From Chrysochromulina tobinii (taxonomy: Eukaryota), in the NCBI GenBank assembly GCA_001275005.1, contig JWZX01001576.1, positions 1 through 36,285 of the forward strand: DNA of 36,285 bases, read 5' to 3'. The translations under genes were made by a program, and so were the position numbers. Shown here piece by piece: positions 12,987-36,285 of the stretch. Position 1 is the first letter of the stretch. Each line of letters begins with the position of its first letter. The notes beneath the pieces were generated by a model, which saw nothing but the letters and a program-made list of their open reading frames with translations, had not been told where the DNA came from and searched no databases.

Positions 12987-15900
12987 ATGTTCTTCCCTTT
13001 ATCGCCGGCCGCAGACGTGGTGGCTCTCGATGCAGGAAGGAGGTTGCTTGCGCACCAGAATTGCACCTGCCGTGAGCTCTCGTGGCAGCTGGCTCGCACT
13101 TGCGCCGGCGTGCTCGTCGGCACCCTCGAGCGCCAGCATGCCGCAGTCGTCGAGACTGTGGTGCTGGCAGCAGAGGCTAGCCGCGCAGCAGAATGGTGGC
13201 AGCTAGCAGCAGGCAGCCTCATCAGCGCGTCGCTGCTCTACCACCACGGTCGCTGGATGGTGTGGATCTTACTCTCGATAGGTATTCTTTCGGTGCAAGC
13301 GCTCTACGTAGGTTGGCAAACGTGCATGATCTTCTTCAACGTCGTCTTATGTGCGCTTCCGCCGCTGAGCTGCTGCTTCCGCCTCCGAAGCTCGGCTTGT
13401 TTGCTCCTGCCTGCTCCTCCTTGATCGAAGCTCACTGCCACGCGCCCTGCCCCGTGTCAGACACTTGGGTGCGCAACGTCGGCGTTGTGTTCTGGTTGTG
13501 CGAGTCATCATACCGCTGGGTGATGGGAGGAAGCATCCGCAGGCGGTGGCGGCTGCGCCGCCGGCTGATGCGTGCAGTCACGTGGCGCGAGTACTCGGCG
13601 GCGGGTTTGGAGCTCGATGAGCTCGATGGGCGCGATCCATGGCGCGACTCACCCGCAGGCTACGGAGCGTCGGGTGTGACGACCGCCGCTCGCCAGCTTC
13701 GAGAGGCTCGAGAGGCTGGGAAGCGCGAGCAGCTGATGCAGCTGATGAGCACCATGATGGTTCGTAACCACCTTCAAATCGACCGACCGGCGCTGCACAC
13801 CGAGTGCCGTGTGGGCACCAAGCGGTCCATCGAGCAGCTCGTCACAGAGCAGGTGGCCGCGCTTCGGTGGCTCGCACAGGCTGCCAGGCTCGACGCCAAG
13901 GCCGACGCCTCCTCAGTGCCAGCGGCCATCGACTTCTTCGAGCGCAGCATCGTATGCCTGGGGCACACGGCCCTTTGCCTCTCCGGCGGTGGCAGCCTCG
14001 CCATGTATCGTAAGCACTGCCGCAGTCGCAGCGCGCGCACCGCCGCCGATCCTCACGCGAGGCGAGATTGCGATCTTGAGTTCCTGAGATCCGCCGCCGC
14101 CGATCCTCACGTGTGGCGCACCCCAATTTCTCAAGATCTCAGCTCATAACTCGCTTGCATCTCGTGCCTGCCGGCCGCAGACATGGGCGTCATCAAGACC
14201 CTCATCGAGAACGAGTGCATGCCGAGCATCGTGACGGGCACCAGCGGAGGCGCCATCATCGCGGGTATGCTCGCCATCTCCTCGGACGAGGAGATGCTCG
14301 AAAAGGTCATCCAGCCGGACATTGCGGTGCGCTACCCAGAGCGCTGGTTCCCGCCCATGGAGCAGCAGCTGTTCAACTACGTGCGCAACGGCTGCCTCGT
14401 CGAGCACGACGAGTTCGCCAATTGCTGCCGTCGCTATTACGGCGACGTGACCTTCGAAGAGGCGTTTGCTCGCACGGGGCGCATTGCAAACATCAACATC
14501 TCGGTGGGCGCGCGCCAGGGCGGCGTGGGCAAAAAGGCGTTGCTGCTCAACCACCTGACGGCGCCGCATGTGCTCATACGGTCGGCCGTGCATGCGTCGT
14601 GCGCGCTGCCCACGGTGATGCACCCGACCAAGCTGCTCATGAAGGGTGCCAACGGCCAGATAGAGCAGTTCGAGAAGGAGTCCCTCGAGTTCATCGACGG
14701 ATCCTTCACAGCAGACATCCCACGCCGTAGGCTGAGCGAACTGTTCCACGTGACGCAGGACATTGTGTCACAGGTGAACCCGCACGTGGTTGCGATGCTG
14801 CACTCGCGCCAACCGGGCGCATCGGCTGCCTACTCGCCGCTCCATCGCGTGCAGCAGCACTTCCTCGGAGACGTGCTCCATCGGCTCAAATACCTCGCAC
14901 GGCTGCGGCTGCTGCCTGCCATGTACGGCCAGGACATCACCGCAGCGATGGAGCAGCGATACACGGGCGACGTGACCATCGTACCGCGGGTGGGTGGGCC
15001 CTACGCGATCATCAAAATGGTCCAGAATCCTTCGCGCGCCATGATGACGCGCTACATCGCCGAGGGGCAGCGCGCAACCTTCCTGAGGCTCTCGCACATT
15101 AGGCATCTCCTGTCACTCGAGCAGGCCCTCGAGGCTGGGCTCGCCACCCTTCATGCTGAGCGACGCAAGCTCGAGGCTCTGGGCATCCTGCCGCCCTCCG
15201 ACCCCCGGACCCCATCGGCGGGGCAGCTGCGCTCGGGCACGGCGCCGGCACCGCTGCTGCGCCGCTCGCTCTCGCTGCCCCTCGGGCGCGAGACGCGGGA
15301 GGCGAGGCAGAGAGCCGAGGCCGAGGCTGTGGCCATGGTATCCGCATCGGTCGGGTCCGGGGGTGTGCCTCGACTGGCCACGTGGAGCGGTCCGTCCCCT
15401 CCCCCTCACCCTACCCTGTCGGATGCCCCAGCCGCCGCGGCGCCGTCCCGAGCACTCGGCCGCGCCCACCGACGCGCTGTGTCGCACGCGAGCCGCCTTG
15501 ATGACTGGCCATCCGCGGGCGGCGCTCAGGGCATCGGCGCTCAGGGCATCGGCGCTCAGGGCATCGGCGCTCAGGGCGTCGCGGGCACAGCCGAGGCGGA
15601 ACCAACGGACCCTCGGCACGGAAGGTGGCTCTCGACCTTGGTCGACTCTCCCTCTGCCGAGGCTGCCGACGGCTCCTCTGAGCCTTCACCTACCCTCCGA
15701 CTGCCAGCCGCGGTGGCGCCGACCCCCCCCAACCCGCGCCAGACCCGCGCCTCCCCGCACGCGGCCAATTGTGAACGCGAGAGCGGCTCGCCGACACGAG
15801 AGCGAGCCCCGAACAGCGCCGGCGGAGCGGCCGACGACGATGCTCGCTCGAAGCGCCTCCTCTCCGAGTCCATCAAACACAACAAGGCGCTGCAGCAGCT

Positions 15901-18435: not shown

Positions 18436-19286
18436 TACCGCCGAGGTAGCCACTGCCGAGCAACTCGTGGCCGCCGCCGCCCGTTGCCGCCGCTCAGGCC
18501 GCGGCCGAGAAGGCCGCCGCGGAAACCTGCCCCGCCGAAGCCGACCGACAGCTGCGCCGACAGCTGCGCCGACAGCTGCGCCGACAGCCCACGCGCGCTC
18601 AGGGCGGCGCTCAGGGCGGCGAGGTTGGAGGCGCCGAGGCCGGCGCCGAGGCCTGCACCGCCCATCCCCATGCAGTTCAGTCTGGCATGCGCGAGACTCT
18701 CTAGTTGCGAGAGGTGCTCCAGGGATGAGAGCCCATCCCAACCGCCCAGCCCGGCGCCGCCGAGCAGCCGCGACAACGCCGACGTGCCTGCGCGCGCCGC
18801 CACGCGAGGTTGGAAGGCGCGCGGAGGCAGTGCAACCGTTGCCACCTCCGCCGCCACCTCCGCCGCCGCCTGCTCCGCTTCCTCCGCCGCCGGCACCTTG
18901 CTGTGGTACTCCCCCCCTTGATGTGGTACTCCCGTTGGTGTGCTCGCGGGCGATGACGCGTGCAGCATTTCCATCAGCTGCTCCCCCGCACGGCACCTTG
19001 TTTGGGCGGCGGCGGAGCCTTGCTCTTGGTGTCGACTTTGATCGGCCGTCTTGCACTCTGTGTCGACGCGCTTCTGCATAAGCAAAGCCTGTACTTTTGG
19101 AGGTGCGACTTGATGCTCAGGCGAGTGGGGGCGTTCTCGCCGTGCAGGTCCATGATCGTCCATGATCTGGGCGATCGCCACGAGCCCAAGCTCGGCCACG
19201 GCGGCCTCGAAGCGAAGGTGGAGGTCGGGTGACCAGACAAAGTAGACGAATCGCTGCTTTTGCTGCGGGCCGGGCGGGGCATCTCA
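18435..19286 (-). pseudogene. Disrupted GARP/G2-like MYB (SHAQKYF class) transcription factor
   Basis: KQRF..VWSPDLHLRFEAAVAELGL lies in one frame and PTRLSIKSHLQKYRL in another. They are separated by a 10-nt duplication (GTCCATGATC x2, 19148-19167). A second shift occurs near 19085, and an in-frame TGA lies at 19284-19286. The true extent is probably larger (about 17800-20200). Confidence 0.75.
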
Positions 19287-20684
19287 TAGGCCACCCAGGC
19301 CGCCACCCAGGCCGCCGCCCGGGCCGCCGCCGAGGCCGCCGCCGAGGCCGCTGCCGAACTTTCCAGCCATGGCCCCACCGCCGCCGCCGCCGCCACCGAA
19401 GCCGGGGCCGCCACCCGGGCCTCCGACGAGGCCGCCGAAGCCACCGAGACCGGCGTTCGTAGGCACGCTGCGCGAACGCATGAGCGCGATGTCGCCGCCC
19501 AGGTCGCCGCCCGGGCCGCCGTCCAGGCCGCCGCCCAGGCCGCCAAAGCCACCGAGACCGCCACCCTTGCCGCCACCGTTGTCGCCGTCGCCGCCGCCAC
19601 TGCTGCCACCGTCGCCACCGTTGCCGCCGTGGCCCACGCCTCCATTGCCGTCCGCACCGCCGGACCCGGCCAGCAGCTGCTGAGCATATTGTGAAGTGAT
19701 CTGACTGACGAAGAGTCGCTTGTCTGAAGATGGACGAGGCGGCCCGCCGCCGCCGAGGCTCTGCAACCCAGAGCGCTCGCCAGAGCGCCGGTGCTCAAGC
19801 CGCCAGACAGGCTGCCGCCCAGCCCTCCCGAAAGACCCCCGCACTCAACGCACTCGGACGCATTGAGGCTGCTTGAGAGATTCGCCGCGAGGCTGCCGCT
19901 GCCGCGGGGGGCGCCACCAAGAGCACCGCCCGAGCCGGCCGCCGAGCCCGCTGCCAGCCGGAAGGTTGGTGGCGAGGCTCCCCGAAAGTCCTCCCGACAA
20001 CTCTCCCGTGAGGAGACCGCTCGGGTAGGCGCCGCGTTCCTATCCCGCCGCCGAGTCCGCCGCCGAGCCCACCGCTCAGGCCGCCGCTCAGGCGACCGCT
20101 CAGGCCGCCGCTTAGCGCGCCACTGAGGCTGCCGCTCAGGCTGCCGAGGAGTGCACTAGAGCCAACGAAGCCATCCGCGCGTTCCTGCGCATCGAGGGGA
20201 GGGAGCGCACACACTCAGTCGCGAATGCGTAATGTGGAGCCGTGACAAGAATGAGGGTGCACGCGCTTCACCAGCCCCCGACGATGATACAATGCGCCTG
20301 TACCAGCTGCGCGCGCCGAGGGCCGCGAGCACGACGAGCAGCGAGGTGGCAAGGGCGAGGCATCCGAGCAGTCGATTGGCAACCCACGCACGGGGATTCA
20401 GAAGGGCAAAACGGTCGGGCCGGGCGCCGGTGCTCTGTGAGAGCTCGACAGGCGACGTGGCGCTCTCGGCCGCGCACTAGCCGCGCGCACCTCTCGCTCG
20501 ATTGGGTAGCCGCCGCGCCCAGGAGAGGAGGGCACGAGAGGGGGCAAGGAGGCGGTCCTCGCCGAGCCAAGCGGTCGGAGTGCGTGTTCAGGAATCCGTT
20601 TAAGAATTTTTACGTTTCAAAAGAATCTAACGGAATGATTTTCAGCTTGGTCTTTTCAGTTCCTGCTTTCGCAGTAAAGTACCC

Positions 20685-21782
20685 ATGATGAAAGTGCTCA
20701 TCGCGATTCTTCTCGCCGCGCCAGTCGCCGCCGCCGCCACCGCAAATTTGCGTGGGCGCTTGGTGCATTGATGCACCGCAGATTAACCTGACCGCATTCG
20801 GCTTTCCAAGCTGTTTTAATGATTGTGGAGCGACCATCTTGGAGAAAGCATTTGGCTGCAACTTCTGTGCGCAACCGGAGGTGGCGCCATCAACACGGGT
20901 TGCGCCACTTCCTTATGCGCGGATTGCCTGGGACCTGGCAAGCAGCAGATGTGCGCCTTGTGCAACGCCTACAAACTAACTTTGACGCCGCCAAAATCCA
21001 TCTTTGATGCGTACACTTGCCCCTCCCTTGGGCCACTGACGTGCGACACGATCAGGGCGGGATTCGAGGGTTGCACCAACGACTGCAGCCAGGCTGACTA
21101 CAAGAACATCCTGACCGTTACTCTCCCCTTGTTCATGACTACTACCGCGGAGATTGCTCAGTACACCACTCTCCGGGATACCTGCACTGTCCTTCCTCCC
21201 AGTCCGCCGCCCCCGCCGCCGGCGGCGAAGGCCGCCGACCCATGCTTCCCCAGCGATGCGCTCGTCACGATGGTGGACGGCACGTCGCGCCGCCTCGACG
21301 CGCTCCGCGCGGGTGACACCATCGTCGCCGCCCGTGCCGACGGCGCCCTCACCAATGACATCGTCTCTCCTCTCTCCCTCGCCGACGCGGATGTGAAGGG
21401 CACAAGCTTTGTGGTCCTCACGACGGAGTCTGGCCGCGAACTCACGCTGACGCCCACGCACCACGTGCCGGTCGGCGCCACGTGCTGCGCCAACCTCAAG
21501 GAGGCCAAGGACATCGTTATCGGCGAGACTGTCTATGAGGCAGTTGTGAGCGCTGCCGTGCATGCCACGCAGGTCAAGAAGATTGGCTCGGTGACCAAGT
21601 CAGGCCTGCACTCGCCGGTGCTTACGCACGGCGCGATGCCGATCGTGAACGGCGTGGTGACGTCCTTTGACTCCATGGAGATCGTGCGCCTTGCCACCTA
21701 CGGGCTGCCCCTGCTCGAGGCGACTGGGCTCACCAACACCTTCCGTGATGCTGTCCTCGCCCAACGCAAGTACATTGCCTAA
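20685..21782 (+). CDS. Secreted Cys-rich protein with C-terminal Hint/Hog (Hedgehog-intein) autoprocessing domain; 5' structure unresolved
   Basis: DP|CFPSDALV (block A), LTLTPTHH (TxxH block B) and GLHSP...IVNGVVTS (C-terminal block). Signal-like MMKVLIAILLAA starts at 20685 and a PPSPPPP linker precedes the Hint domain. Frame continuity between 20720 and 20870 needs an intron or two frameshifts. Confidence 0.85.
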
Positions 21783-25589: not shown

Positions 25590-28402
25590 ATGGCTCGCTT
25601 GAGCCTGCTGCTGCTGCTATTGGCGCACGTGGGCCGCACGGCTGCCAAAGGAGCCGCTGCTGCACACTCGAGGCCCGCCGTGAGCATCACATCTGCTTGC
25701 GCCATCCCGGATGGGTCAACCGCCGCTGCCACGCCGCTCGCTTTGAGGAGGCTACGCGCCTTGCGAGGTGGCAACACGGAGACGGCTACGACACGGGCTC
25801 GGGCGAGGCCCGAGGACGACGCGCCGATCGGACGCATGCGCCTGGTCGTGGCGACGGGTCGCGCCAACGATCCCTCTGTCGTCGAGATCAGCAAGGCGGA
25901 CGCTAAGGCGATGGCGCTTGAGGAGGGCGCGCACGTGACGCTGCGCGGGCGCAAGCAGCGGCGGACGACATGCGTCGTGCTGGTGTCGGACGAGCTCAAG
26001 GCCGGCGAGGCCCGCCTCTCGCAGACGTCTCTGAACGCAGTCCGGCTCGCCGACGGGCAGGACGTCATCGTCGCACCAGAGCCCAATCTCGCCGAGGCGG
26101 AGCGTGTGCTGCTGCTGCCCTTCAAGGCGTCGCTGACGGCGGCGGATGTGGACAGCGAGAAGGCCTTCGAGCTTGGCCTCGCACCTTACCTCAAGGGCCA
26201 GGACAGGCCGCTCACAGTCGGCGACATCATCGAGACGCCCCTGCCCGACTCTGGCGCGATTGTGCGCTGGAAGGTGCTCGAGCTCGAGCCTCCTGCGACG
26301 AACCCGATCGAGGCGGCGAGGGGCACGGTGGGTGCAGAGACGCTGGTCTTTGCCGAGGGCGAGCCGCTCGAGGAGAAGGACGACCTGTCCGGCGATGACG
26401 ACATCATCGGGTACGACGACATCGGCGGCCTCGACAAACAGCTCTCGATGTTGCGCGAGCTCGTCGACCTGCCGCTGCTCCATCCGGTCGTCTTCGACGA
26501 GATCGGCGTGCGCCCTCCCCGCGGTGTGCTGCTCGTAGGGCCGCCGGGGAGCGGCAAGACGATGGTGGCGCGGGCGGTCAAGTCCGAGACGGGCGTGCAC
26601 TTCCAGACCGTCAACGGCCCCGAGGTCATGTCGAAGCGCAGCGGCGAGAGCGAGGCGGGACTACGCAAGATCTTCGCGGACGCCGAGGCGAACTCGCCCG
26701 CCATCATCTTCATTGACGAGATCGATGCGATCGCCCCCAAGCGCGAGAAGGCGCAGGGCGAAATGGAGCGGCGCATCGTCTCGCAGCTGCTCACCCTCAT
26801 GGACGGAATCAAGCCCACCAGCCACGTCATCGTGATCGGAGCAACCAACCGCCCCTCCATCCTCGACTCGGCGCTGCGCCGCTTTGGCCGCTTCGACCGT
26901 GAGATCGACCTGGGCATCCCGGATGCGGCCGGTCGGCTGCAGATCCTGACGAAGAAAGCGAAGGGGATGCGCTTCTCGGCCGAGGTCGACCTCGTCCACA
27001 TTGCCGACGACACGCACGGCTACGCAGGCGCCGACCTCTCGCAGCTCGTCACCGAGGCGGCGATGCAGTGCGTGCGCGAGCGCGCGGGCGACATCGACGT
27101 GGACGCGGAAGATGTGGACCCGGAGGTGCTCAACGCACTCATGATCACGCCAGACCACATCAAGTTCGCCATGGACAAGACGGCGCCCTCGTCACTGCGC
27201 GACAAGGCCGTCGAGATCCCCGATTGCTCGTGGGAGGATGTGGGTGGGTTGCTTGACGTCAAGCGCGAGATGACGGAGACGCTCATGTACCCGCTCAAGT
27301 ACGGGCCCAAGTACAAGCGCTTCGGGATGCAGCCCTCCAAGGGGGTGTTGCTCTACGGCCCCTCGGGCTGCGGCAAGACGCTCGTGGCCAAGGCCATTGC
27401 CAACGAGGTGCAATCCAACTTCATCAGCGTCAAGGGGCCGGAGCTGCTCTCGATGTGGTTCGGCGAGTCGGAATCAAACGTGCGCGAGCTCTTCGACAAG
27501 GCGCGCGGCGCGGCGCCGTGCATCCTCTTCTTCGACGAGATCGACTCGATCGCCAAGCCGCGTGGCTCTGGCGGCGCCGGCGGCTCCGATTCGGGTGACC
27601 GCATCGTCAACCAGATCCTCACGGAGATCGACGGCGTTGGCTCCAAGGGATCGGTGCGCGCGTGCACGCCTCGCCAGACGCCCTGCATGCCTCGCGCCCA
27701 CCCACGCTGCCGGCCCGGCCTGGCCGCTAGCTGCCGCGGGGATGTCGAGGACGAGCAACCCAATCCATGTCCAACACCGAGCGCGTCTGTGAGGACCGCT
27801 ATTGTACCATCAAATGCCGAGGCGTCCCACGCAGGCCCTAACCCTAACCCTCAGGCAGAGGAGCCGAGGCTTCCGAAACTGCCGCGAGGCCGCTCCGAGG
27901 CCGAGGCCCTCCTCTCTTGCCTTGGCGTTCGCCCCTCTCGCGCCCGCCGACCCCCTCATGACCGCGCCCTTCGTCGCCCGCTCGGCAGGTGTTCATCATC
28001 GCGGCGACCAATCGACCCGATATGCTCGACTCGGCGGTCATGCGCCCCGGCCGGCTCGACCAGCTCGTGTACCTGCCGCTTCCCGACCTCGAGTGCCGTC
28101 GCGCCATCTTCGGCGCCGCCACTCGCAAGTCACCGCTCGCCGCCGACATCTCGCTGGACGACTTCGCCGCACGCACAGAGGGCTACTCGGGCGCCGACAT
28201 CACCGAGCTGTGCCAGCGCGCATGCAAGCTAGCCATCCGGCAGCACATTGCCGACGCCAGCGCAGGCGCGCCCGAGGACCAGCGCTGCACCATCATCACC
28301 TCGGCCCACTTCGAGGAGGCCTTCAGCAAAGCTCGCAAGTCGGTCACTGCCGCGGATGTCAAAAAGTTTGAGACCTTCCAGGCATCGATGCGCGCTCGCT
28401 GA
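25590..28402 (+). CDS. CDC48: Cdc48/p97 AAA+ ATPase with bipartite leader (probable periplastidal SELMA sCdc48); exons 25590-27653, 27989-28402; 825 aa
   Basis: N-domain, D1 (GPPGSGKT, IFIDEID, ALRRFGRFDRE) and D2 (GPSGCGKT, FFDEID, MRPGRLDQ). Splicing restores GSKGS|VFIIAATNRPD. N-terminal signal-like MARLSLLLLLLAH plus a basic leader containing LRGG; no C-terminal HbYX tail. Confidence 0.93.
27654..27988 (+). other. Spliceosomal intron of CDC48 (335 nt)
   Basis: GTGCGC...GGCAG, phase 0. Contains CCCTAACCCTAACCCT at 27836-27851. Confidence 0.92.
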
Positions 28403-29081
28403 TGGGCGGGCCTAGCGCCGTGCGCCCCTCACAGGTGCGATCGAAAACGTGGGACAAGGGGACAAGGGCCTTGGTTCCAAGGGGGAGCCGGGGGGGGCAC
28501 GCAGCCCACAATTCCCGAGGCCGGGTGTGATGCATACCCGTGTGAGCCAATAAGCCGTGAGCTCCCGTACAGTGTGCCCTTCAAGCTATGTGTGTTTGGA
28601 CGAGTATAACACAATGTGCGGAAAGGCCAAAGAAGCGGTTCACACGGCATTGGCAAACGGGGTCCGGTCGCGATCGCGCGTCGCGGGCGCGCCGACACGC
28701 GATCGCGCGGTCGCGGGCCGCGCCGACCGCGCGTCGTCGGGCCGCGCGCGGGGCCGATTAGTTCGGCGCGGCCAGGATCGACGGAGGATGTGCTTGGTCC
28801 GTGCTCGTGTAGGAAGCGGTCTGCGCTCGTGCGGTGTGCGAATACCACAGTGAGCCTTCAATGCGCCCGTCGATGCGCCCGGCCATTCACGACCGACACC
28901 CTGGGTGCTGCAGCCTACCGAAAAGCCTACTACACTCACCACTTGGAGTGCGCGCCATGTATATCCCCGAAGGACCATCCTCAGCCCTGGATTCAAGACG
29001 GTCTCAAAGGTGACTCTCGGGCGGCCGCCAGCCCCTGTCGCCTCCGTTGGCCGCGCACCTGTCGCGGCAGGGGGGTCGCCG

Positions 29082-29242
29082 CACTGAGTTCAAAATCAGG
29101 TGGTGGGGATAGTGTCTTAGTGTGTGAATCCAGAAAGAATACCCTCCCCTACCCCTTTGGGTCAACCACTGAGTTCAAAATCAGGTGGTGGGGATAGTGT
29201 GTGAATCCAGAAAGAATACCCTCCCCTACCCCTTTGGGTCAA
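29082..29242. repeat. Intergenic direct repeat, 2 copies (84 and 76 bp)
   Basis: cactgagttcaaaatcagg...ctttgggtcaa at 29082-29165 and 29167-29242. The first copy has 8 extra nt (cttagtgt). Confidence 0.92.
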
Positions 29243-29537
29243 GCGCGGTGTTTCTGACGTGCTGTCTGCTGAAGGGCTGTCGCTCCCCGCCCGGCCCCGC
29301 TGTGGAGTTACGTAGTTTGTGAATAAAATTATACCGCCGGTAGGTTCGAGGAGCAGCTAGCCCTTGGCATATATGTCCAGAGCAGTGTGATGCACCTGGT
29401 CCAAGTCGCAAGTGTGGCGTGCTTCATATGATTTACAGCCTTAGAAGGGACCCTGGAACGCCTGGTTCCCTTCCACCCTTGACCTTCCACCCACTTGTGG
29501 CCTCAGCCTCGACAAGGTTCGTCCCCAAAGCCGAACG

Positions 29538-29594
29538 GCGCTCAAGACGACGCTCAACATGACGCTCAGAACGACGCTCAGAACGACGCTCAGA
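29538..29594. repeat. 12-bp tandem repeat (gacgctcagaac-like) at the bestrophin stop and 3' UTR
   Basis: About five imperfect copies. Confidence 0.8.
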
Positions 29595-31236
29595 ACAGTC
29601 CTTCGATCGCGGCCATCTCGGCTGGGGGTGCCGAGATCGCCTCCTGGAGATTGGCCATGATGATGTTGCACAGTGCCGTCATCGGCACGATCTCGAACGG
29701 CTGCTCCACCTGTGGGGAAGGGGAGCGCCGTGGTGAGCACTTGCATGCCGGGCGAGATCTCGAACGGCTGCTCCACCCACCTGGACACCCACTTCCTCGA
29801 TGCCCACGAAGATGTACACAATCAACGAGACCCAGAGGGCAATTGAGATCGGCGACATCGCGCCCGCGAGCACGAAGGGCAAGGTCGCGATCCACAGCAC
29901 GAGGCTGCGCACCTGCATGCAATGAGGGAGGCCATCAGTGGCAATCGGTGGCACTCGGTGGCACTCGGTGGCACTCGGTGGCAATCAGTTAGCAATCGGT
30001 GGCAATCAGTGGCCATCACAGCACGAGGCGGCGCACCACGTGACGCGACATGGTGGGCGGCACAGGCGACGAGAAGAGGCGCTCGCAGCCGCCCACGACC
30101 AGATTCAGATCCTCCAGATTCTGCTCCAGCTTCCGGTGCAGGTGGGCGGGTAAGTTCCCCGAACGAAATTGGCGATACAAGTTTCGGCGCAGCGCGCCCA
30201 GCAGCACGAGAGGTCGAGAACGCTGTTGGGACATCCACTCCGCCTCGGCCTTCGGGAGCAGTATGGAGAGCACGTTGTCCGAGTACACATCCGTATTTCG
30301 GATCGACGATGGTCCCGTCAGCTTCGCGTTCAGCTCCCAGCACCACGCTCCGAGGTACCTGATGAGGGATGCAATCAGCATGCAATCAGCATGCAATCAG
30401 TAGGCAATCAGCATGCAATCAGCATGCAATCAGCATGCAATCAGCATGCAATCAGCATGCAATCAGCTTCGCGTTCAGCTCGCAGCTCCACGCTCCGAGA
30501 CAGCGACACGTATCGCTGCGCCTGATGAGGGAGGCAATCAGCATGCAATCCGATACCGACACGTGTCCGCTGCGGCGCGCTTGGCTTCGGTCGGGCACGG
30601 CACGTCCGGATCAAAGAGCAGGGCCGTGGCGGCGTTCTGAGCGATCTCGCGGCACAAAAAGACGGCTCGGCCCCACAGCAGGCGTGCCTCGCTGAGTCGC
30701 TGGTACGTGTTGTTCGTCCGGAAGACGAGAAGCAGGCCAATCGCCGACCCGATCAGACCGTGAGGACCCGCCGCTGTGCGAGGAAGCCAGCGCGTCGGCA
30801 GTGACGCGACGAGGAACGCCCATGCCGATGCCGCGAGCATGATGGGCCAGAGTGCGGTCAGGATCGTCGAGTGGCGCCACGTGCGGATCGCCGCAAACCA
30901 GCGTCGGAAAGGCGGCCTGCCCGTGTACTGCTTCCACGTCTTGTGGTCAAAGAGCCGCGTATATGAAGGCTCGCCCGAAATGATGCCCGACACCTTGTAC
31001 ACAGGATTGAGACCGGCTGCACGCCACAGGCTCATCTGCACCTCAGGCGACTGATCCGATGGGCGGAGCGCGCGCACAGCTGCAAGCTGCGCTGAAAGCT
31101 CCTCCAGCACTGGGCGGACGGTGGTGGTTGCCAGAGGCGTGCCGCATCTTTGGATGGGTCGGACGATATTCATTCGGCCTCTCGGAGGCGAGACCACGAG
31201 CGCGCACATGCACAGGCCCATGGTGGTGACGATCAT
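29590..31236 (-). CDS. Bestrophin-like anion channel (UPF0187/VCCN1/BST type), probably plastid-targeted; exons 31236-30557, 30358-30037, 29912-29781, 29709-29590; 417 aa
   Basis: LLLVFRTNNTYQR..EARLLWG, GGCERLFSSPVP..MSRH and GIEEVGVQVEQPF are restored by three phase-compatible GT-AG introns (30556-30359, 30036-29913, 29780-29710). Hydrophobic start followed by a basic transit-like leader. Confidence 0.9.
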
Positions 31237-34124
31237 GGCGTCGCTGGATTCGTGAGGGTCGGGGGTACCAGTACCATGGTATGGGCAGCGAGAGGCGTCG
31301 CAGGATTCCTCGTGTGAACGTTCACACGACAGACGCGACAACCAGGTATGAAAACGACCGCTTTTCTTCACATTCCCGGATATGAACCTGAATGGACCCG
31401 GCGAGTATCCGTGAAAAACGGCGCGTCGCAGTCTACCGCGCGGCACACGATTCTAATTCGCGCTCACCGCTCCATAAGGTGGGGTGGCAGCCCCCCTGCA
31501 AACGCTGCCTGCCACTCCCCCAAAGTCCGCAGCCCGCAGCGTACTGCTTTGATCATTCCGCGGCGAGCTCGGCCTTTCGGGCGAGCTCCGCGGAGATCGT
31601 CGCGAGCTCATGAGCCGCACTCTTGACCTCCGCGGCGTGCTCGGCGTGCGTGGCGTCCCATGGCGGCTTCGCTGCCGCCGCCTCCATCGCCGCCACAACG
31701 TCTTCCAAACGCTCCCGTGTCGCTCCCACCGCGGCGCGCGCCGTCGCGTACCTAATTAGGGTGGCACGCATGGGCTCAATCAGCTGCACGCTCAAGTCAT
31801 CAGCTGCCATCACAAGGCACCGTCGCGCACCGATGCTGTGTGAGGATGGTCTGCACGCTGATGAGGGAGGCAATCATGGGCTCATCAGCTGTCATCAAAG
31901 GGCACCGTCGCGCACCGATGCTGTGTGAGGATGGTCTGCACGCAAATCTCGAGGAGGCGAGATGGCAGCTCTTCCGATGACGGAGACGCCGGTAGCGCCG
32001 TGTCGGGCGTGATAGGAGACATCGGTAGCGCCGTGTCGGGCGCGAGGGGAGACATTTGTGGCGCCGTGTCGGGCACGAGCGCTTGCGACGACGCTGCGAG
32101 CGCCCACGTTCTGGCGAGGTACTGTAGGTCGTCACTCGGCTTGCGCAGCAGCTGCCACTCAGGGCACGAGAGCTCGTCTGGAGGCACCGACGCGTTGAGC
32201 CTCTCGAACAAGCTCGGAGCACTCAACTGTGAGGGCGGCTCGAGCAGCGCGGAGAGTAGCTGCCGTCGGCGCTCGGTGCGCATGGACACTCCCGCCTCGT
32301 CCGCCCTATTCTGATCCAACAAGCCGTAGAGACGGCACACCGCCGCCCCATACTCACGCACCCCCGGCCGCTGCAGCAGCACATGGAGGAGCAGCAGCTC
32401 CGCCTGGTCACGTAGACCGGCGTGCTCCAGCCCCGTACCTGTGGGTGTGAACGCGCTGTGGTGAGCACATGCATGCAAGGCCGGTCATCAGGTGGCAATC
32501 AACGTCGAGCTCCAGCTGCGTACCGCGTGAACGGGAGCCGGACACATTCGACCCGATGGCCGCCGCCGCCGCCGCCGCCGCCGCCGTGGTGGTGGTGGTG
32601 GTGGTTGTGGTGGTGCCGGTGGCGGCGGCGGCGGCGGCGGCGAGTCGGGCGGCAGTGGCGTCGGCCGGTTCGTTCGCGACAGCACAGATAGCACACAGAG
32701 GCAAGGAATGGAGCTCTGCCAGCGAGGGGGGCCGTGGCCGAAGTCGCTCATGTGCACACGATGACGTGGCGATCCAATGGAGCGTATCCGGCACGGCGCT
32801 CCAAACATAAAGCTCATCAAGCCTCACCTCGAGCTCCGCTAATCTCGCCAGTGGAGGTCGTGCAGCCGAACGTGCAGGGGCTCGCGCCGCCGAGCGCGCC
32901 GTCGTGGGCGCTGACGACGGCGCCGGCGCCGGCGCCGGCGCCGATGACGACGAAGCTGACGAAGCGGGGGGCGAGAGAAGGTGTAGGCTTGCGTGGAGGT
33001 CGTCGCGCAGCTGGGCAGCGAGCGTGTCGTCGTCGGCCGCAAGCAGCCGAGCGAAGAGATGGATGTGGATCGATCGCTCGACCGCGGTACGCAAGTGGCT
33101 GAGCAAGGCCACCAACTCCTTCACGCACGCTTCGAGCTGGCCTGTGGACCGGCTCGCTTGATACGGCGCGAGCACCGATCGTCCCACCCACTCGACCCAG
33201 GAGGGCGCCGTGTCGAGCACCTGCATGCAACGAGGGAGGCCATCAGGTGGCACTCCAAGTGGCCATCATACGCGGGAGCGTGGGCGCCGTGTCGAGCACC
33301 TGCGTCTCGAAGGCGCGTCCGGCCGCCTGAGCGGCCGCTGCGGCGCCATCGGGGCCGACCGCAAACGCGGGCTGCGAGCGGATGGCGCCACGCGATGCCT
33401 GCACGTACTCGTCCGGATCCTTGTACGGTGTCGGCATCGTAGCGATGCGCACGTCGATCCCGCGAGCGTTGAGCCGAGCGAGCGCCCCACTCTCATAGAG
33501 CCGACGCGTCGCCTGCTGACCGGCCTCATCCGCATCGAGGGCGAGGACGAGCGTTCGGGACGGCGCGCCCGCGAGCAGCGGCGAGATTGCGAGCTCGAGT
33601 TGGAGATCGGTCAGAGCGGTGCCCAAGCACGCAACAGCATACCTGCGACAGAGAGCGCCCAAGCGCACCTGAAGCGCAATCAGCGGCCATCAGTGGCCAT
33701 CAGTGGCCATCAGTGGCCATCAGCGGCCATCAGCGGCCATCAGCGGCGGCCAGCGGCGGCGACCAGCGGCGACCAGCGGCGACCAGCGGCGACCAGCGGC
33801 GACCAGCGCAACTCCGCGCACCGTATCCCGACCGAATGCAGCGCGATGGCGTCCATGTACCCCTCGACGATCACCGCGCGCCCCGCCCGACGCATGGCTC
33901 CTTTGGCGAGGTGGTACGCGTACAACGTACCTGTGGGGAGGAGAGGCGCCGTAGTGAGCACTTGCATGCGCGAGGTGGTATGCGTACAACGTACCCCCTT
34001 TCGAGAAGACGGGCGAGTCGATCGAGTTGAGGTACCTAATAAGGCAGGTCATCCGGAGGGCTCAGCTCACAGAGGTCATCACAGAGGCCATCACAGAGGC
34101 AATCACAGAGGTCATCACAGTTAC
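29710..34124 (-). mobile_element. Set of nine related repeat-filled introns (candidate introner-like or duplication-born introns) at 29710-29780, 29913-30036, 30359-30556, 31752-31915, 32439-32523, 33221-33299, 33643-33821, 33931-33994, 34036-34124
   Basis: Shared 3' cassettes, 10-12-mer internal repeats and duplicated flanking exon sequence. The introns themselves are well supported; mobility is inferred. Confidence 0.5.
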
Positions 34125-34990
34125 TTTGGGTAGAGGGCCTCCCTGCCCGGTTCGGGCGGCTTGAGGGCGCGCCCGCCAAAGGCGATCACGCGCCCGTGCG
34201 CGTCGTGGATCGGAATCATCAGCCGCGCGCGGAAACGGTCGTAGCTCTCGCCGCCGGTGTCGATGATCAGCCCGGCCTGCACGCACGCGGTGCGCGACAC
34301 GTTTGGCTGGCTAGCGAGGTACTTGGTGAGCACCTTGCCGCCGGCCGCGAAGCCGAGGCCGAAGCGCTCGGCAAGCGCGTTGTCGATGCCGCGCGAGCGC
34401 ATCTGCTCCGCGCACAGCGCCGCGTCACTTCCGGGCAGCGCGCGCGCACGCCGCGCCTGCTGGTACGCCGCCGCGGCCGCCTCGTTCGCAGCGACGAGGG
34501 CCTGATGCTCGGCCGTGAGCGGCGGCGCTGCCGGCCAGCCACCGGCGCCGAGCTGCTGCGTGTCGATCGCGTCGGCGCCCTCCACGTCGTACCGGCGCGC
34601 AAGCTCGGCCAGCGCCTCTCCGGTCGCCATCCCTTCGTGATGCTCCAGAAAGGTGACGGCGTTGCCGCTCGCCTCGCAAGCAAAACAGTAGTACACGCCC
34701 TTTTCGTCGTTGATGGACATCGAAGGGGTGCGCTCCGTGCCATCGCCATGGAACGGGCAGCGCGCCATAATCTTGCCGCCCGAGGCCTGCACGTGCACGC
34801 CGCTGTCGGCGATCACCTCAGAAAGCTTCGCCGCGCGGTGCACGGCCTCTCGAAAGCTGCTCAGTCCGCGGCGACGGCCGGCGCCGCCATCGGCGCCCGT
34901 TGCAACCATGCGCAGCGCCTGCGACACAACGCGCGCAGGGAGCGCCCTCCGCAGCAGCGACGTCATGAGGAATAGCCAGACGCCGCGCAT
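31553..34990 (-). CDS. dnaG: Bacterial-type DNA primase DnaG, nuclear-encoded and organelle-targeted; exons 34990-34125, 34035-33995, 33930-33822, 33642-33300, 33220-32524, 32438-31916, 31751-31553; about 925 aa
   Basis: CHC2 zinc finger (CPFH...CFAC), DRFRARLMIPI...IAFGGR, PKYLNS, and TOPRIM motifs VEGYMD, LGTALT, LDADEAG, KDPDE. All six introns are GT-AG and phase-compatible. Exons 5-7 are less certain than exons 1-4. Confidence 0.9.
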
Positions 34991-35202
34991 CCGGCTGTGA
35001 TGACACTGTGGCGTCGTTTCGAGCGTTTAGGGCCAAAGCGACGCGGCAGCAGTCTCGTTCAACCACGTGGAGCCGTGCGTGGGGAAATAAGAGATAACGA
35101 TGTGCAGTTCGGTACCGGGACAAGTCAATGAAAGAGATCAATGCGACAGACTCTACACAGGTTGAGGCCCGCGCTCATAGTGCTCATGTCCGCGCTGGGC
35201 CG

Positions 35203-36105
35203 TCACGGCAGCTGCAGCCGGTACAGCCGCTCGCCCTGCAGGTGGAACTTGCGCTCGAAGAGCGTGAGAGCGTCGTCCTCGTGGCGCAGCGGCGGCAGCT
35301 CCGTCAACAGCCGCCCTCGGTGCCCATTCATAGCCACGCCACGGGCGCTCAGCCTCGACGCACACAGCCGTGCCGCCGCCGTGGCCGCGCTGTCCTGAGC
35401 GCCGCCCTCCTCCTCCTCCTTCGGCCAGCGACTGACGGCGAGCTGCACCGCGTCGTTCGCCGTGCCGGTCAGCGAGCGCGCCGCGCCCAGGAATTCGTTC
35501 AGGTAGACGTTCCAGTTGGAACGGATCTCTAGTGTTCCACCGAGGCCGCAGAGAACGGGCAGCGCCGGGTGTCCGTGCCATCGCAAGTTGAGCCTTGCGG
35601 CCTTCGGGTACGGGTTCGGGTAGAGGAGAAAGTGGTGTCGCACGCGTGCCGCGCTCAGGCCGCTCCTGCCCGCGCCCTCCACGTCGCGCTGTAAGAGTAG
35701 CCGCCAGAACGAAGAGCACTCGGCGCGCACGAGCAGCGCATTCGGAGGCAAGGGCTGAGCCGACGCCTCCAGACGAGCCTCCGATCGATCGAGGCCGATG
35801 ATGGCTGCGTCGGGGTGCGCCCGCGCGAGCATGCACGTCGAGCGACCCGTGCCGCAGCCTGAGTCGAGGATGACTGGCGGGCGGCCTTCCAAGCCTTGGA
35901 GCCACGCCTCCGCTCCTTTGAAGGCATCGATTGTCGGTGCATGCAGTGGGCTCGCCAGGTAGCGCGGCAGGTGCTCCAATGAGCGCAGCCCGTAGCGCTC
36001 CACATTCGGGTGGGCCACCTGCGGGTATACCGCAGCGAGGTTGCTGCACTGCATATCCTCGGTTTTCGTGTAAGGGAAAGTGCAACCGCACGGTGGTGTG
36101 AACAT
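35203..36105 (-). CDS. Class I SAM-dependent methyltransferase, TrmB-like (tRNA m7G46 family)
   Basis: ILDSGCGTG (motif I), IGLDRS, LLYPNPYPK...RWHGHP, LEIRSNW and TLFERKF. Start codon uncertain. Confidence 0.8.
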   Translation of the reverse strand: MFTPPCGCTFPYTKTEDMQCSNLAAVYPQVAHPNVERYGLRSLEHLPRYLASPLHAPTIDAFKGAEAWLQGLEGRPPVILDSGCGTGRSTCMLARAHPDAAIIGLDRSEARLEASAQPLPPNALLVRAECSSFWRLLLQRDVEGAGRSGLSAARVRHHFLLYPNPYPKAARLNLRWHGHPALPVLCGLGGTLEIRSNWNVYLNEFLGAARSLTGTANDAVQLAVSRWPKEEEEGGAQDSAATAAARLCASRLSARGVAMNGHRGRLLTELPPLRHEDDALTLFERKFHLQGERLYRLQLP

Positions 36106-36285
36106 GGGGGCACTTGCAGAGGCAAGTGCGAGTGACGAGGCCGCTTACTACGCAGGCCGTGCCGTGCTTCCGGAAAAGGAAACAATCCTATCCAAATGTT
36201 TAGAGTGCTACCGCCGGCTTCCCCACCCCCGTTTGTCGTTTCTCGTTTCGGTGGTGAGGTTCTCTTACTTTAGTCACTTTAGTTC

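What the first reader, a model, noticed from the sequence alone, without database searches (positions are those of the whole stretch)
29710..34060. Unrelated introns share a few conserved 3' acceptor cassettes and related microsatellite fill
Seen (minus strand), four classes. A: GCATGCAAGTGCTCACYACGGCGC...CCCCACAG ends introns at 29710 and 33931, with a variant at 32439. B: TGATGGCCTCCCTCRTTGCATGCAG ends 29913 and 33221. C: TGATTGCMTCCCTCATCAG occurs at 30359, internally at about 30522 and at 31858. D: CCTWATTAG ends 31752 and 34036. Interiors are built from related 10-12-mers (TGATTGCATGC, CCACCGAGTG, CCGCTGATGG, CTGTGATGACCT). This similarity far exceeds a normal splice consensus, implying common templates or copying between introns.
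Basis: partly seen in the sequence, partly recalled or inferred. Interest (0 to 1): 0.72.

Follow-up and report, generated by a model that had tools for sequence, protein, structure and literature searches.

The report
Introns copied from neighbouring introns
In the alga Chrysochromulina tobinii many short introns consist of a duplicated piece of the gene's own next exon joined to a tail shared with other, often nearby, introns, which likely means that introns here multiply by a copying step of DNA repair rather than as a transposon.

Summary
In one strain pair an 81-nt intron is cleanly absent from one strain, and its last 50 nt are identical to an intron 524 nt away. Best matches lie on the same contig 8 times more often than chance, and some introns carry exon-derived remnants of a neighbour. 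A mirror type inherits the 5' half instead. So the template is likely an existing intron, not one master element; the enzyme (repair polymerase or reverse transcriptase) is unknown. Two Introner surveys screened this species without a hit. The scan noted the flanking duplication before on another piece of this genome (e1-2577349); the neighbour-as-template result is new here.

The parts
29590..31236 (-). Bestrophin-family gene, 4 exons, 417 aa
   Evidence: spliced frame identical to named C. tobinii protein P0100; Pfam Bestrophin_2
29710..29780 (-). Bestrophin intron 3 (71 nt): exon copy 29776-29756, A core 29748-29725, pyrimidine tail and AG; the copied exon start is 29709-29689 (21 of 21 identical)
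   Evidence: RNA contigs leave about 130 letters between 29705 and 30031, fitting the 132-nt exon
29913..30036 (-). Bestrophin intron 2 (124 nt): exon copy 30036-30017 (19 of 20 with 29912-29893), 10-mer filler, B end
30359..30556 (-). Bestrophin intron 1 (198 nt), nested: short C-ended piece (to 30522), then a copy of the joined exon1/exon2 junction (about 30519-30463), 11-mer filler, C end
   Evidence: RNA bridge in X12 and X13; other strains differ at its 5' end, and P0114 reads like the simple one-step form
31553..34990 (-). DnaG-type primase gene, 7 exons, 917 aa from the second ATG (34966)
   Evidence: prefix identical to named C. tobinii protein P0037
31752..31915 (-). Primase intron 6 (164 nt), nested: C-ended piece (to 31858), copy of the upstream exon end (31857-31831 = 31942-31916) and of the intron start, D end; its first 11 nt copy the next exon (10 of 11)
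   Evidence: RNA joint 31749-31914 in X13 and X15
32439..32523 (-). Primase intron 5 (85 nt): exon copy 32523-32509 (13 of 15), long shared filler, variant A core 32476-32453
   Evidence: RNA joint 32433-32519 in X15
33221..33299 (-). Primase intron 4 (79 nt): exon copy 33299-33282 (18 of 18 with 33220-33203), filler, B end
   Evidence: spliced out in P0037
33643..33821 (-). Primase intron 3 (179 nt): 10-mer filler array, no clear exon copy, ordinary acceptor
   Evidence: spliced out in P0037
33931..33994 (-). Primase intron 2 (64 nt): exon copy 33994-33970 (24 of 25 with 33930-33906) joined directly to A core 33969-33946 and tail
   Evidence: spliced out in P0037; distant relatives P0002 and P0004 read through this site
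34036..34124 (-). Primase intron 1 (89 nt): 12-mer filler, D end, no exon copy beyond 3 nt
   Evidence: relative P0003 appears to have an unrelated intron at this site, P0002 and P0004 read through

Best explanation
These introns are chimeras of a duplicated piece of the host exon and a 40-60-nt stretch shared with other introns, and they likely arise when a repair polymerase briefly switches template to an existing, often nearby intron. Shown: (1) the intron starts with a 10-44-nt copy of the next exon, whose GT becomes the donor; (2) the rest (branch-point-like core or filler, pyrimidine tail, AG) is shared with other introns, preferentially ones within a few kb; (3) the product is spliced out exactly and can be present in one strain and absent in another; (4) a mirror type keeps the shared 5' half and takes its AG from a copy of the upstream exon end. 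Inferred: at a nick or staggered break the growing strand pairs with a neighbouring intron over a few bases (AG|GT at one junction, 2-5 bases at the other), copies a short patch, and rejoins 10-45 nt behind the point it left, so the host stretch is duplicated. Inferred: only events that give a GT-AG intron of about 60 nt or more survive in exons; because each birth overwrites one half with host sequence, only the middle (core, filler, acceptor) stays alike across the genome, and each new intron is itself a possible template. Inferred: unequal exchange between the direct repeats explains the head-to-tail multiples and should also delete such introns precisely.
For: Exon copy: 101 of 132 isolated A cores followed by YAG|GT, against 2 of 1984 mismatched pairs and 48 of 971 motif-free YAG|GT sites; it starts with GT in 97 of 101; introns 55-94 nt; unanchored search 145 of 196 against 4 of 394; C type 43 of 78 against 1 of 578, not cleaned of tandem units. 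Empty site: L076 has an 81-nt intron with a perfect 33-nt exon copy that L010 and L041 lack exactly; flanks differ at 12 of 884 aligned bases; its last 50 nt are identical to the intron 524 nt downstream in L010/L041 (1 mismatch in L076 itself) and match nothing else in 130 loci at up to 1 mismatch. Donor remnants: an intron of L067 carries 12 exon-derived bases of a neighbour 1.7 kb away plus its rare core variant; an intron of L048 carries 11 such bases from 2.5 kb away. Locality: best match on the same contig for 42.8 of 270 acceptors, expected 5.3, highest of 2000 permutations 17, median distance 1.1 kb; shared core variants 32 of 125 pairs against 17.0 permuted, p=0.0012, within one near-identical record series; filler 9-mer overlap 0.053 against 0.023, 0 of 3000 permutations. 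Many templates: 29 introns with perfect copies of 20 nt or more have 28 different tails; tail likeness predicts likeness upstream of the core, p=0.0015. Microhomology: mean 2.5 nt in 21 of 39 usable C/B junctions against 0.84 simulated; AG before the donor in 54 of 115 against 89 of 981 background GT sites. Donors lie upstream (L067, L048) and downstream (L076) of the recipient. Splicing.
Against: No enzyme was identified and no event was caught in the act. Only one DNA-level presence/absence case was found (plus protein-level hints P0044, P0097, P0105, P0108 that may come from partly spliced RNA). About 84% of acceptors have their best match on another contig (only about 1% of the genome was sampled), and within the window only 1 of 9 cassette ends has its best match in the window. 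45 of 49 local best matches are on the same strand, which also fits an RNA template, though opposite-strand pairs are rare in the sample. The AG|GT enrichment is equally explained by selection for a good donor. The 24-nt core is no more diverged than the exon copies (3.0% against 4.4%, both biased by my filters; no correlation, rho -0.12) although tails are very diverse, so something beyond descent may hold it constant. A first test of core distance within and between loci was negative (exact seed matches inflate the between-locus likeness). Short gaps before the core did not match local flanks more than controls (13 of 34 against 7 of 32). Two window introns (34124-34036, 33821-33643) have filler without an exon copy.
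Confidence: 0.6

Rival explanations
1. Same anatomy, RNA template: a reverse transcriptase (or a repair polymerase acting on RNA) primes at a nick on unspliced pre-mRNA or released intron RNA from the same or a nearby gene, as in target-primed reverse transcription, and the staggered second nick makes the long duplication.
For: Copied pieces end at intron ends: AG in the common type, GT in the mirror type; two internal C cassettes in the window end exactly at AG before a duplicated stretch that does not start with GT; variable 5' truncation with microhomology; 45 of 49 local best matches on the same strand; error-prone C-rich tails.
Against: Donors occur downstream as well as upstream, and 4 of 49 local best matches are on the opposite strand; the presumed branch A of the core is not hypervariable (288 of 294), so no lariat read-through scar; no RT-like motif in the 0.7 Mb held (about 1% of the genome and a crude pattern, so weak).
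Confidence: 0.24
2. A non-autonomous transposon (Introner, SINE- or MITE-like) with one or a few master copies inserts with an unusually long target duplication.
For: High copy number; a recurring 30-nt 5' half plus core in 16 rows; 85 of 188 cores identical; palindromes in the cassettes; empty site.
Against: No fixed ends or fixed duplication length (10-44 nt) against 3-9 bp in described Introners; 28 tails in 29 young copies; recipients carry host-exon remnants of neighbouring introns; no common sequence beyond the cassette in loose ends (agreement 0.41-0.47 in X1); no Rfam match.
Confidence: 0.08
3. The introns are old or were inserted whole, and their 5' or 3' halves were later overwritten by recombination with an intron-less allele or cDNA.
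For: Narrow length range and an inverse relation between copy length and gap (r=-0.65); intron 30556-30359 holds a copy of the joined exon junction; intron 5' ends turn over among strains; P0003 may share the site of primase intron 1.
Against: The strain-specific intron in L076 has no whole precursor in L010/L041 and copies a neighbour; in 32523-32439 exon copy plus retained shared filler exceed the length of the shared 5' half; P0114 fits two successive insertions; duplications flank cores and palindromes that form no obvious intron.
Confidence: 0.06
4. Convergence: a strict branch-point and acceptor consensus plus microsatellite slippage, with no copying.
For: Cassettes and fillers are rich in branch-point-like words (CTCAC, CTGAT, CTAAT), seen in the sequence.
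Against: Cassette-free introns exist in the window; consensus cannot produce exon copies, 50-nt identity to a neighbour or transfer of exon-derived remnants.
Confidence: 0.02

Closest known systems
Intron gain during repair of staggered double-strand breaks (Daphnia pulex; PMC4202315, passages read; review PMC3443670, sections 6 and 9 and passages read)
   Same: New introns flanked by direct repeats, present in some strains and absent in others, with internal repeats from repeated events.
   Different: In Daphnia the source of most new introns is stated to be unknown and the new introns are AT-rich; here the source is identified as another intron's half, the repeats are 10-44 nt, and the process feeds itself into genome-wide families.
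Introners and introner-like elements (PMC9860276, section 7, passages and supplement searches; PMC12130899, passages and supplement search; bioRxiv 10.1101/2020.10.14.339549, parts 1-2 of 4)
   Same: Families of similar introns in unrelated genes; one splice site carried, the other taken from a target duplication; both orientations of that arrangement are described.
   Different: Described duplications are 3-9 bp and fixed per family, and copies are alike end to end. Here the duplication is long and variable, only half of the intron is shared, there are no fixed ends, and neighbours are templates. C. tobinii is in the screened lists of both surveys: 0 families in the 2025 table and no hit row found in the 2022 file, which was cut when stored. 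One Emiliania huxleyi family (5 copies, '10bp terminal direct repeats', co-opts 5', carries 3') in the 2025 table may be similar; its sequence was not seen.
[quoted passage not shown]
   Same: A duplicated exon stretch supplies a splice site and splicing restores the coding sequence exactly.
   Different: There both sites come from the duplicated segment; here a foreign patch with branch point and AG (or GT) is inserted between the copies, so a 10-44-nt duplication suffices.
Intron transposition, spliceosomal retrohoming and RT template switching (review PMC3443670, section 6 read); Hypoxylaceae sister stwintrons (PMC8469720, passages read)
   Same: An existing intron is the source of a new one.
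   Different: Those models move whole introns seamlessly, and the fungal cases have no target duplication; the review counts 14 identified events. Here half introns are copied with a long duplication, at hundreds to thousands of sites.

Membership tests
Introner / introner-like element | Many similar intron copies in unrelated genes | tested here: met
   319 distinct acceptors in about 0.68 Mb (A 188, C 111, B 13, D 7); depth ratio of several hundred
Introner / introner-like element | Similarity over the whole intron with defined ends | tested here: not met
   5' part is host-derived in 101 of 132; 28 tails in 29 young copies
Introner / introner-like element | Fixed short target duplication (3-9 bp) or none | tested here: not met
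   10-44 nt, median 26; literature range
Introner / introner-like element | Recent presence/absence at orthologous sites | tested here: met
   one DNA case, L076 against L010/L041; protein-level hint P0044
Introner / introner-like element | Terminal inverted repeats or an autonomous partner | tested here: inconclusive
   short palindromes inside cassettes but no shared inverted ends; no common continuation in loose ends; whole genome not held
SINE / target-primed retroposition | Variable-length target duplication and truncation with microhomology | tested here: met
SINE / target-primed retroposition | tRNA-, 5S- or 7SL-derived head or other defined source RNA | tested here: not met
   no Rfam match at E up to 1 in window 29000-35000; templates trace to neighbouring introns
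SINE / target-primed retroposition | A partner reverse transcriptase | tested here: inconclusive
   0 motif hits in about 1% of the genome with a crude pattern
Intron gain in staggered-break repair | Direct repeats at intron ends above background | tested here: met
Intron gain in staggered-break repair | Dependence on an end-joining or template-switch repair pathway | not testable with these tools
   needs genetics or induced breaks
Tandem genomic duplication (AGGT model) | Both splice sites come from the duplicated exon segment, no foreign insert | tested here: not met
   a shared cassette lies between the copies
Intron transposition by reverse splicing | Whole intron inserted without target duplication | tested here: not met
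   half introns with long duplication

The most novel reading that the evidence does not exclude
C. tobinii introns reproduce as half-introns with no transposon: each new intron takes one splice site from a duplicated piece of its host exon and the other from a copy of a neighbouring intron, in either direction, so a branch-point-bearing core spreads as a self-renewing lineage that has made thousands of this genome's introns and is invisible to Introner searches.
Probability: 0.5. Interest if true: 0.88.

Novelty: new variant of a known kind. Interest (0 to 1): 0.78.

Why it matters
Where new spliceosomal introns come from is a long-standing question; for most recent gains the source sequence is unknown, and copying of one intron into a new site has few documented cases. 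Here parent and daughter introns can be paired at base resolution in a culturable alga with natural strain variation, so rate, distance, direction and enzyme become testable. It also shows a class of intron families that end-to-end Introner searches miss (this species scored 0 families), and it explains why intron density is patchy from gene to gene: introns seed new introns nearby.

Tried and rejected
No whole genome is held, so all genome-wide numbers come from 129 metagenome loci chosen for an exact A match (0.70 Mb, about 1% of a 59-Mb genome) and from depth; 11-15 redundant or strain-duplicate loci were dropped before counts. Prokaryote genomes: 0 exact matches. Viral contigs: 1 match at the very end of a phage-like contig, probably a chimeric assembly. 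Rfam: nothing. RT motif scan: nothing, weak test. First microhomology null was unfair and was replaced. Core distance within against between loci was negative and confounded by seed selection; redone on variant cores only. Gap sequences as local templated insertions: not above control. Telomerase-like origin of the fillers: considered because relatives show telomere-repeat read-throughs and a haptophyte genome has many interstitial TTAGGG tracts (PMC13518057, passages read), but the fillers here are not TTAGGG and nothing tested links them. An RNA hairpin in the core: variants break rather than keep the possible pairs (read), dropped. The D pattern alone is weak: of 30 matches only 6 are followed by GT and several are the opposite strand of a palindrome. 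Runs X18-X21 hold none of the stretch and were not used. Literature searches gave no paper describing these introns; the genome paper (PMC4580454, passages) mentions only one intron per gene on average. Subscription papers, bioRxiv supplements, files 13-14 of PMC12130899 and the cut part of the PMC9860276 file were not seen and could hold a mention.
Full report
Observation. The region holds two minus-strand genes with nine introns. Removing the nine segments gives stop-free frames of 417 aa (Pfam Bestrophin_2) and 917 aa (DnaG zinc ribbon, catalytic core, Toprim). The first is identical to a named Chrysochromulina tobinii protein, the second to another over its 531 residues, which fixes the organism and seven of the nine junctions; RNA contigs bridge bestrophin intron 1 and primase introns 5 and 6. 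The other 29 kb of the window hold no cassette, and two introns read there from sequence have ordinary acceptors.

Extent. In DNA run X1 the summed contig depth at cassette A is about 19,000-21,000 against 35-51 for single-copy contigs, which points to several hundred close copies (summed depth is a rough measure). An exact 24-nt search gave 134 stretches from 4 of 64 parts of the metagenome collection, 1 at the end of a viral contig and 0 in prokaryote genomes. The loci hold 319 distinct acceptors (A 188, C 111, B 13, D 7). More than 4 kb from any seed there are 46 in 249 kb, which would scale to about 11,000 in 59 Mb; this is an upper figure, because the loci were chosen for holding a cassette (genome size from PMC4580454). 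RNA contigs also join across such introns in L067, with GT-AG ends on the minus strand at five joints.

The 5' part of most of these introns is a copy of the start of the next exon. In the window: 21 of 21, 19 of 20, 24 of 25, 18 of 18, 13 of 15 and 10 of 11 bases, plus two nested cases. In the loci: 101 of 132 isolated A cores followed by YAG|GT have such a copy, against 2 of 1984 mismatched pairs and 48 of 971 motif-free YAG|GT sites; the copy is 10-44 nt (median 26), 95% identical, starts with GT in 97 of 101, and the intron is 55-94 nt. An unanchored search gives 145 of 196 against 4 of 394. C ends show the same (43 of 78 against 1 of 578; tandem units not removed), B 4 of 6, D 2 of 6. A mirror type exists: a shared GT-starting 5' half and core, followed by a copy of the upstream exon end that supplies the AG; by eye this holds in six contigs among the 16 rows with that 5' half (L008, L028, L046, L054, L059, L110). 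The four classes overlap (A cores with D ends, B ending where A begins, shared filler), so they are one vocabulary.

Birth of an intron. L076 and L010/L041 cover the same gene (12 mismatches in 884 aligned bases near the site). L076 has an extra 81 nt: a perfect 33-nt exon copy, 6 bases, the core and a tail. L010 and L041 lack it exactly. Its last 50 nt are identical to the intron 524 nt downstream in L010/L041, differ by one base from that intron in L076, and match nothing else in 130 loci. This gives both direction (gain) and template (the neighbour). Protein records add hints: P0044 runs into filler at a primase site that is intron-free in the window; bestrophin intron 1 has at least six different 5' readings among 54 records, and P0114 reads like the one-step form of the nested intron; P0097, P0105 and P0108 keep intron 1 but read through introns 2 and 3, which may be strains or partly spliced RNA. 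Distant relatives P0002 and P0004 read through the sites of primase introns 1 and 2; P0003 seems to have an intron at site 1.

The template is another intron. An intron in L067 carries 12 bases that are exon-derived in a neighbour 1.7 kb upstream, and the same rare core variant; an intron in L048 carries 11 such bases from 2.5 kb upstream; these strings occur nowhere else in the loci. Such private sharing is seen in 4 of 216 same-contig pairs and 18 of 16,427 other pairs. Within one near-identical record series, 32 of 125 same-contig pairs share a core variant against 17.0 permuted (p=0.0012), and neighbouring C/B/D introns share filler words (0.053 against 0.023). For 270 acceptors with a same-contig partner, the best match of the last 50 nt is on the same contig 42.8 times, expected 5.3; median distance 1.1 kb; a few of the closest may be leftover tandem units. 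The 29 introns with perfect copies of 20 nt or more have 28 different tails, which a single active master would not give. Against this: most best matches are on other contigs, in the window only the B end at 33221 finds its best match locally, one earlier test was negative, and gaps do not match local flanks above control.

Mechanism. Junctions show microhomology: 2.5 nt on average in 21 of 39 usable C/B cases against 0.84 simulated, and AG precedes the donor in 54 of 115 cases against 89 of 981 background sites, with GTACG and GTGCG starts enriched; the latter could also be selection for a good donor. I infer a short template switch during repair of a nick or staggered break: the strand pairs with a nearby intron, copies 40-60 nt, and rejoins behind its point of departure. 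Splicing then filters the events. Donors on both sides of the recipient and the two mirror types fit a DNA-level process (0.6); copied pieces ending at intron ends and the same-strand bias fit an RNA template (0.24). The enzyme is not identified. The constancy of the 24-nt core beside very variable tails is not fully explained.

Comparison. It works like break-repair intron gain in Daphnia (direct repeats, polymorphism; PMC4202315) and like Introners that take one splice site from a target duplication, but it fails Introner membership on end-to-end similarity and on duplication length, fails the AGGT tandem-duplication model because a foreign patch is inserted, and fails reverse-splicing transposition because only half is moved. 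C. tobinii was screened in both large Introner surveys: 0 families in 2025, no hit row in the stored part of the 2022 file. Nine literature searches found no description.

Verdict. Real, genome-wide and mechanistically informative: a new variant of intron gain in which parent and daughter introns can be paired. Interest 0.78.

Noticed in passing
window 27653-27988 (+): Intron in a CDC48/p97-like AAA gene (name from my reading of the sequence, not tested) contains a short telomere-type run at about 27834-27854 ending in CAG; relatives P0002 and P0003 also run into telomere-repeat-like readings, so other haptophytes may fill introns with telomere repeats.
   Followed up: partly
window 13988-14180 (+): Cassette-free intron with an internal direct repeat of about 18 nt.
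   Followed up: no
L002 7026-7134 (-), L039 9304-9640 (+), L022 1542-1680 (+), L008 7608-7750 (-): Head-to-tail multiples of the unit 'exon copy + cassette + AG'; copy number differs between strains in L022/L051 and L010/L076.
   Followed up: partly
L072 8730-8820 (+), L014 11750-11830 (+), L126 480-560 (-): The 10-nt palindrome of class D alone sits between direct repeats of 30-44 nt, without an obvious intron.
   Followed up: no
window 29748-29743, 29920-29915, 30369-30467 (-): Cassettes A and B and one filler share the palindrome GCATGC, nearly invariant in 294 cores; TGCATG is, from recall and not tested, a splicing-regulator motif in animals.
   Followed up: no
window 29082-29236: Direct repeat of about 70 nt, two copies with a small insertion, in the intergenic DNA downstream of the bestrophin gene.
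   Followed up: no
window 31553-34990 (-): A bacterial-type DnaG primase encoded in a eukaryote nucleus, with an N-terminal extension that may be an organelle targeting peptide and a long low-complexity C-terminal half; best named hits after haptophyte-like records are alphaproteobacterial.
   Followed up: partly
L001 2990-3060: The only viral-collection match lies in the last 60 nt of a phage-like contig, probably a chimeric join.
   Followed up: partly
window 36070-36285 and 31240-31469: Summed depth in DNA run X1 is about 9,000 in these bins, so other repeats or conserved sequences lie there.
   Followed up: no
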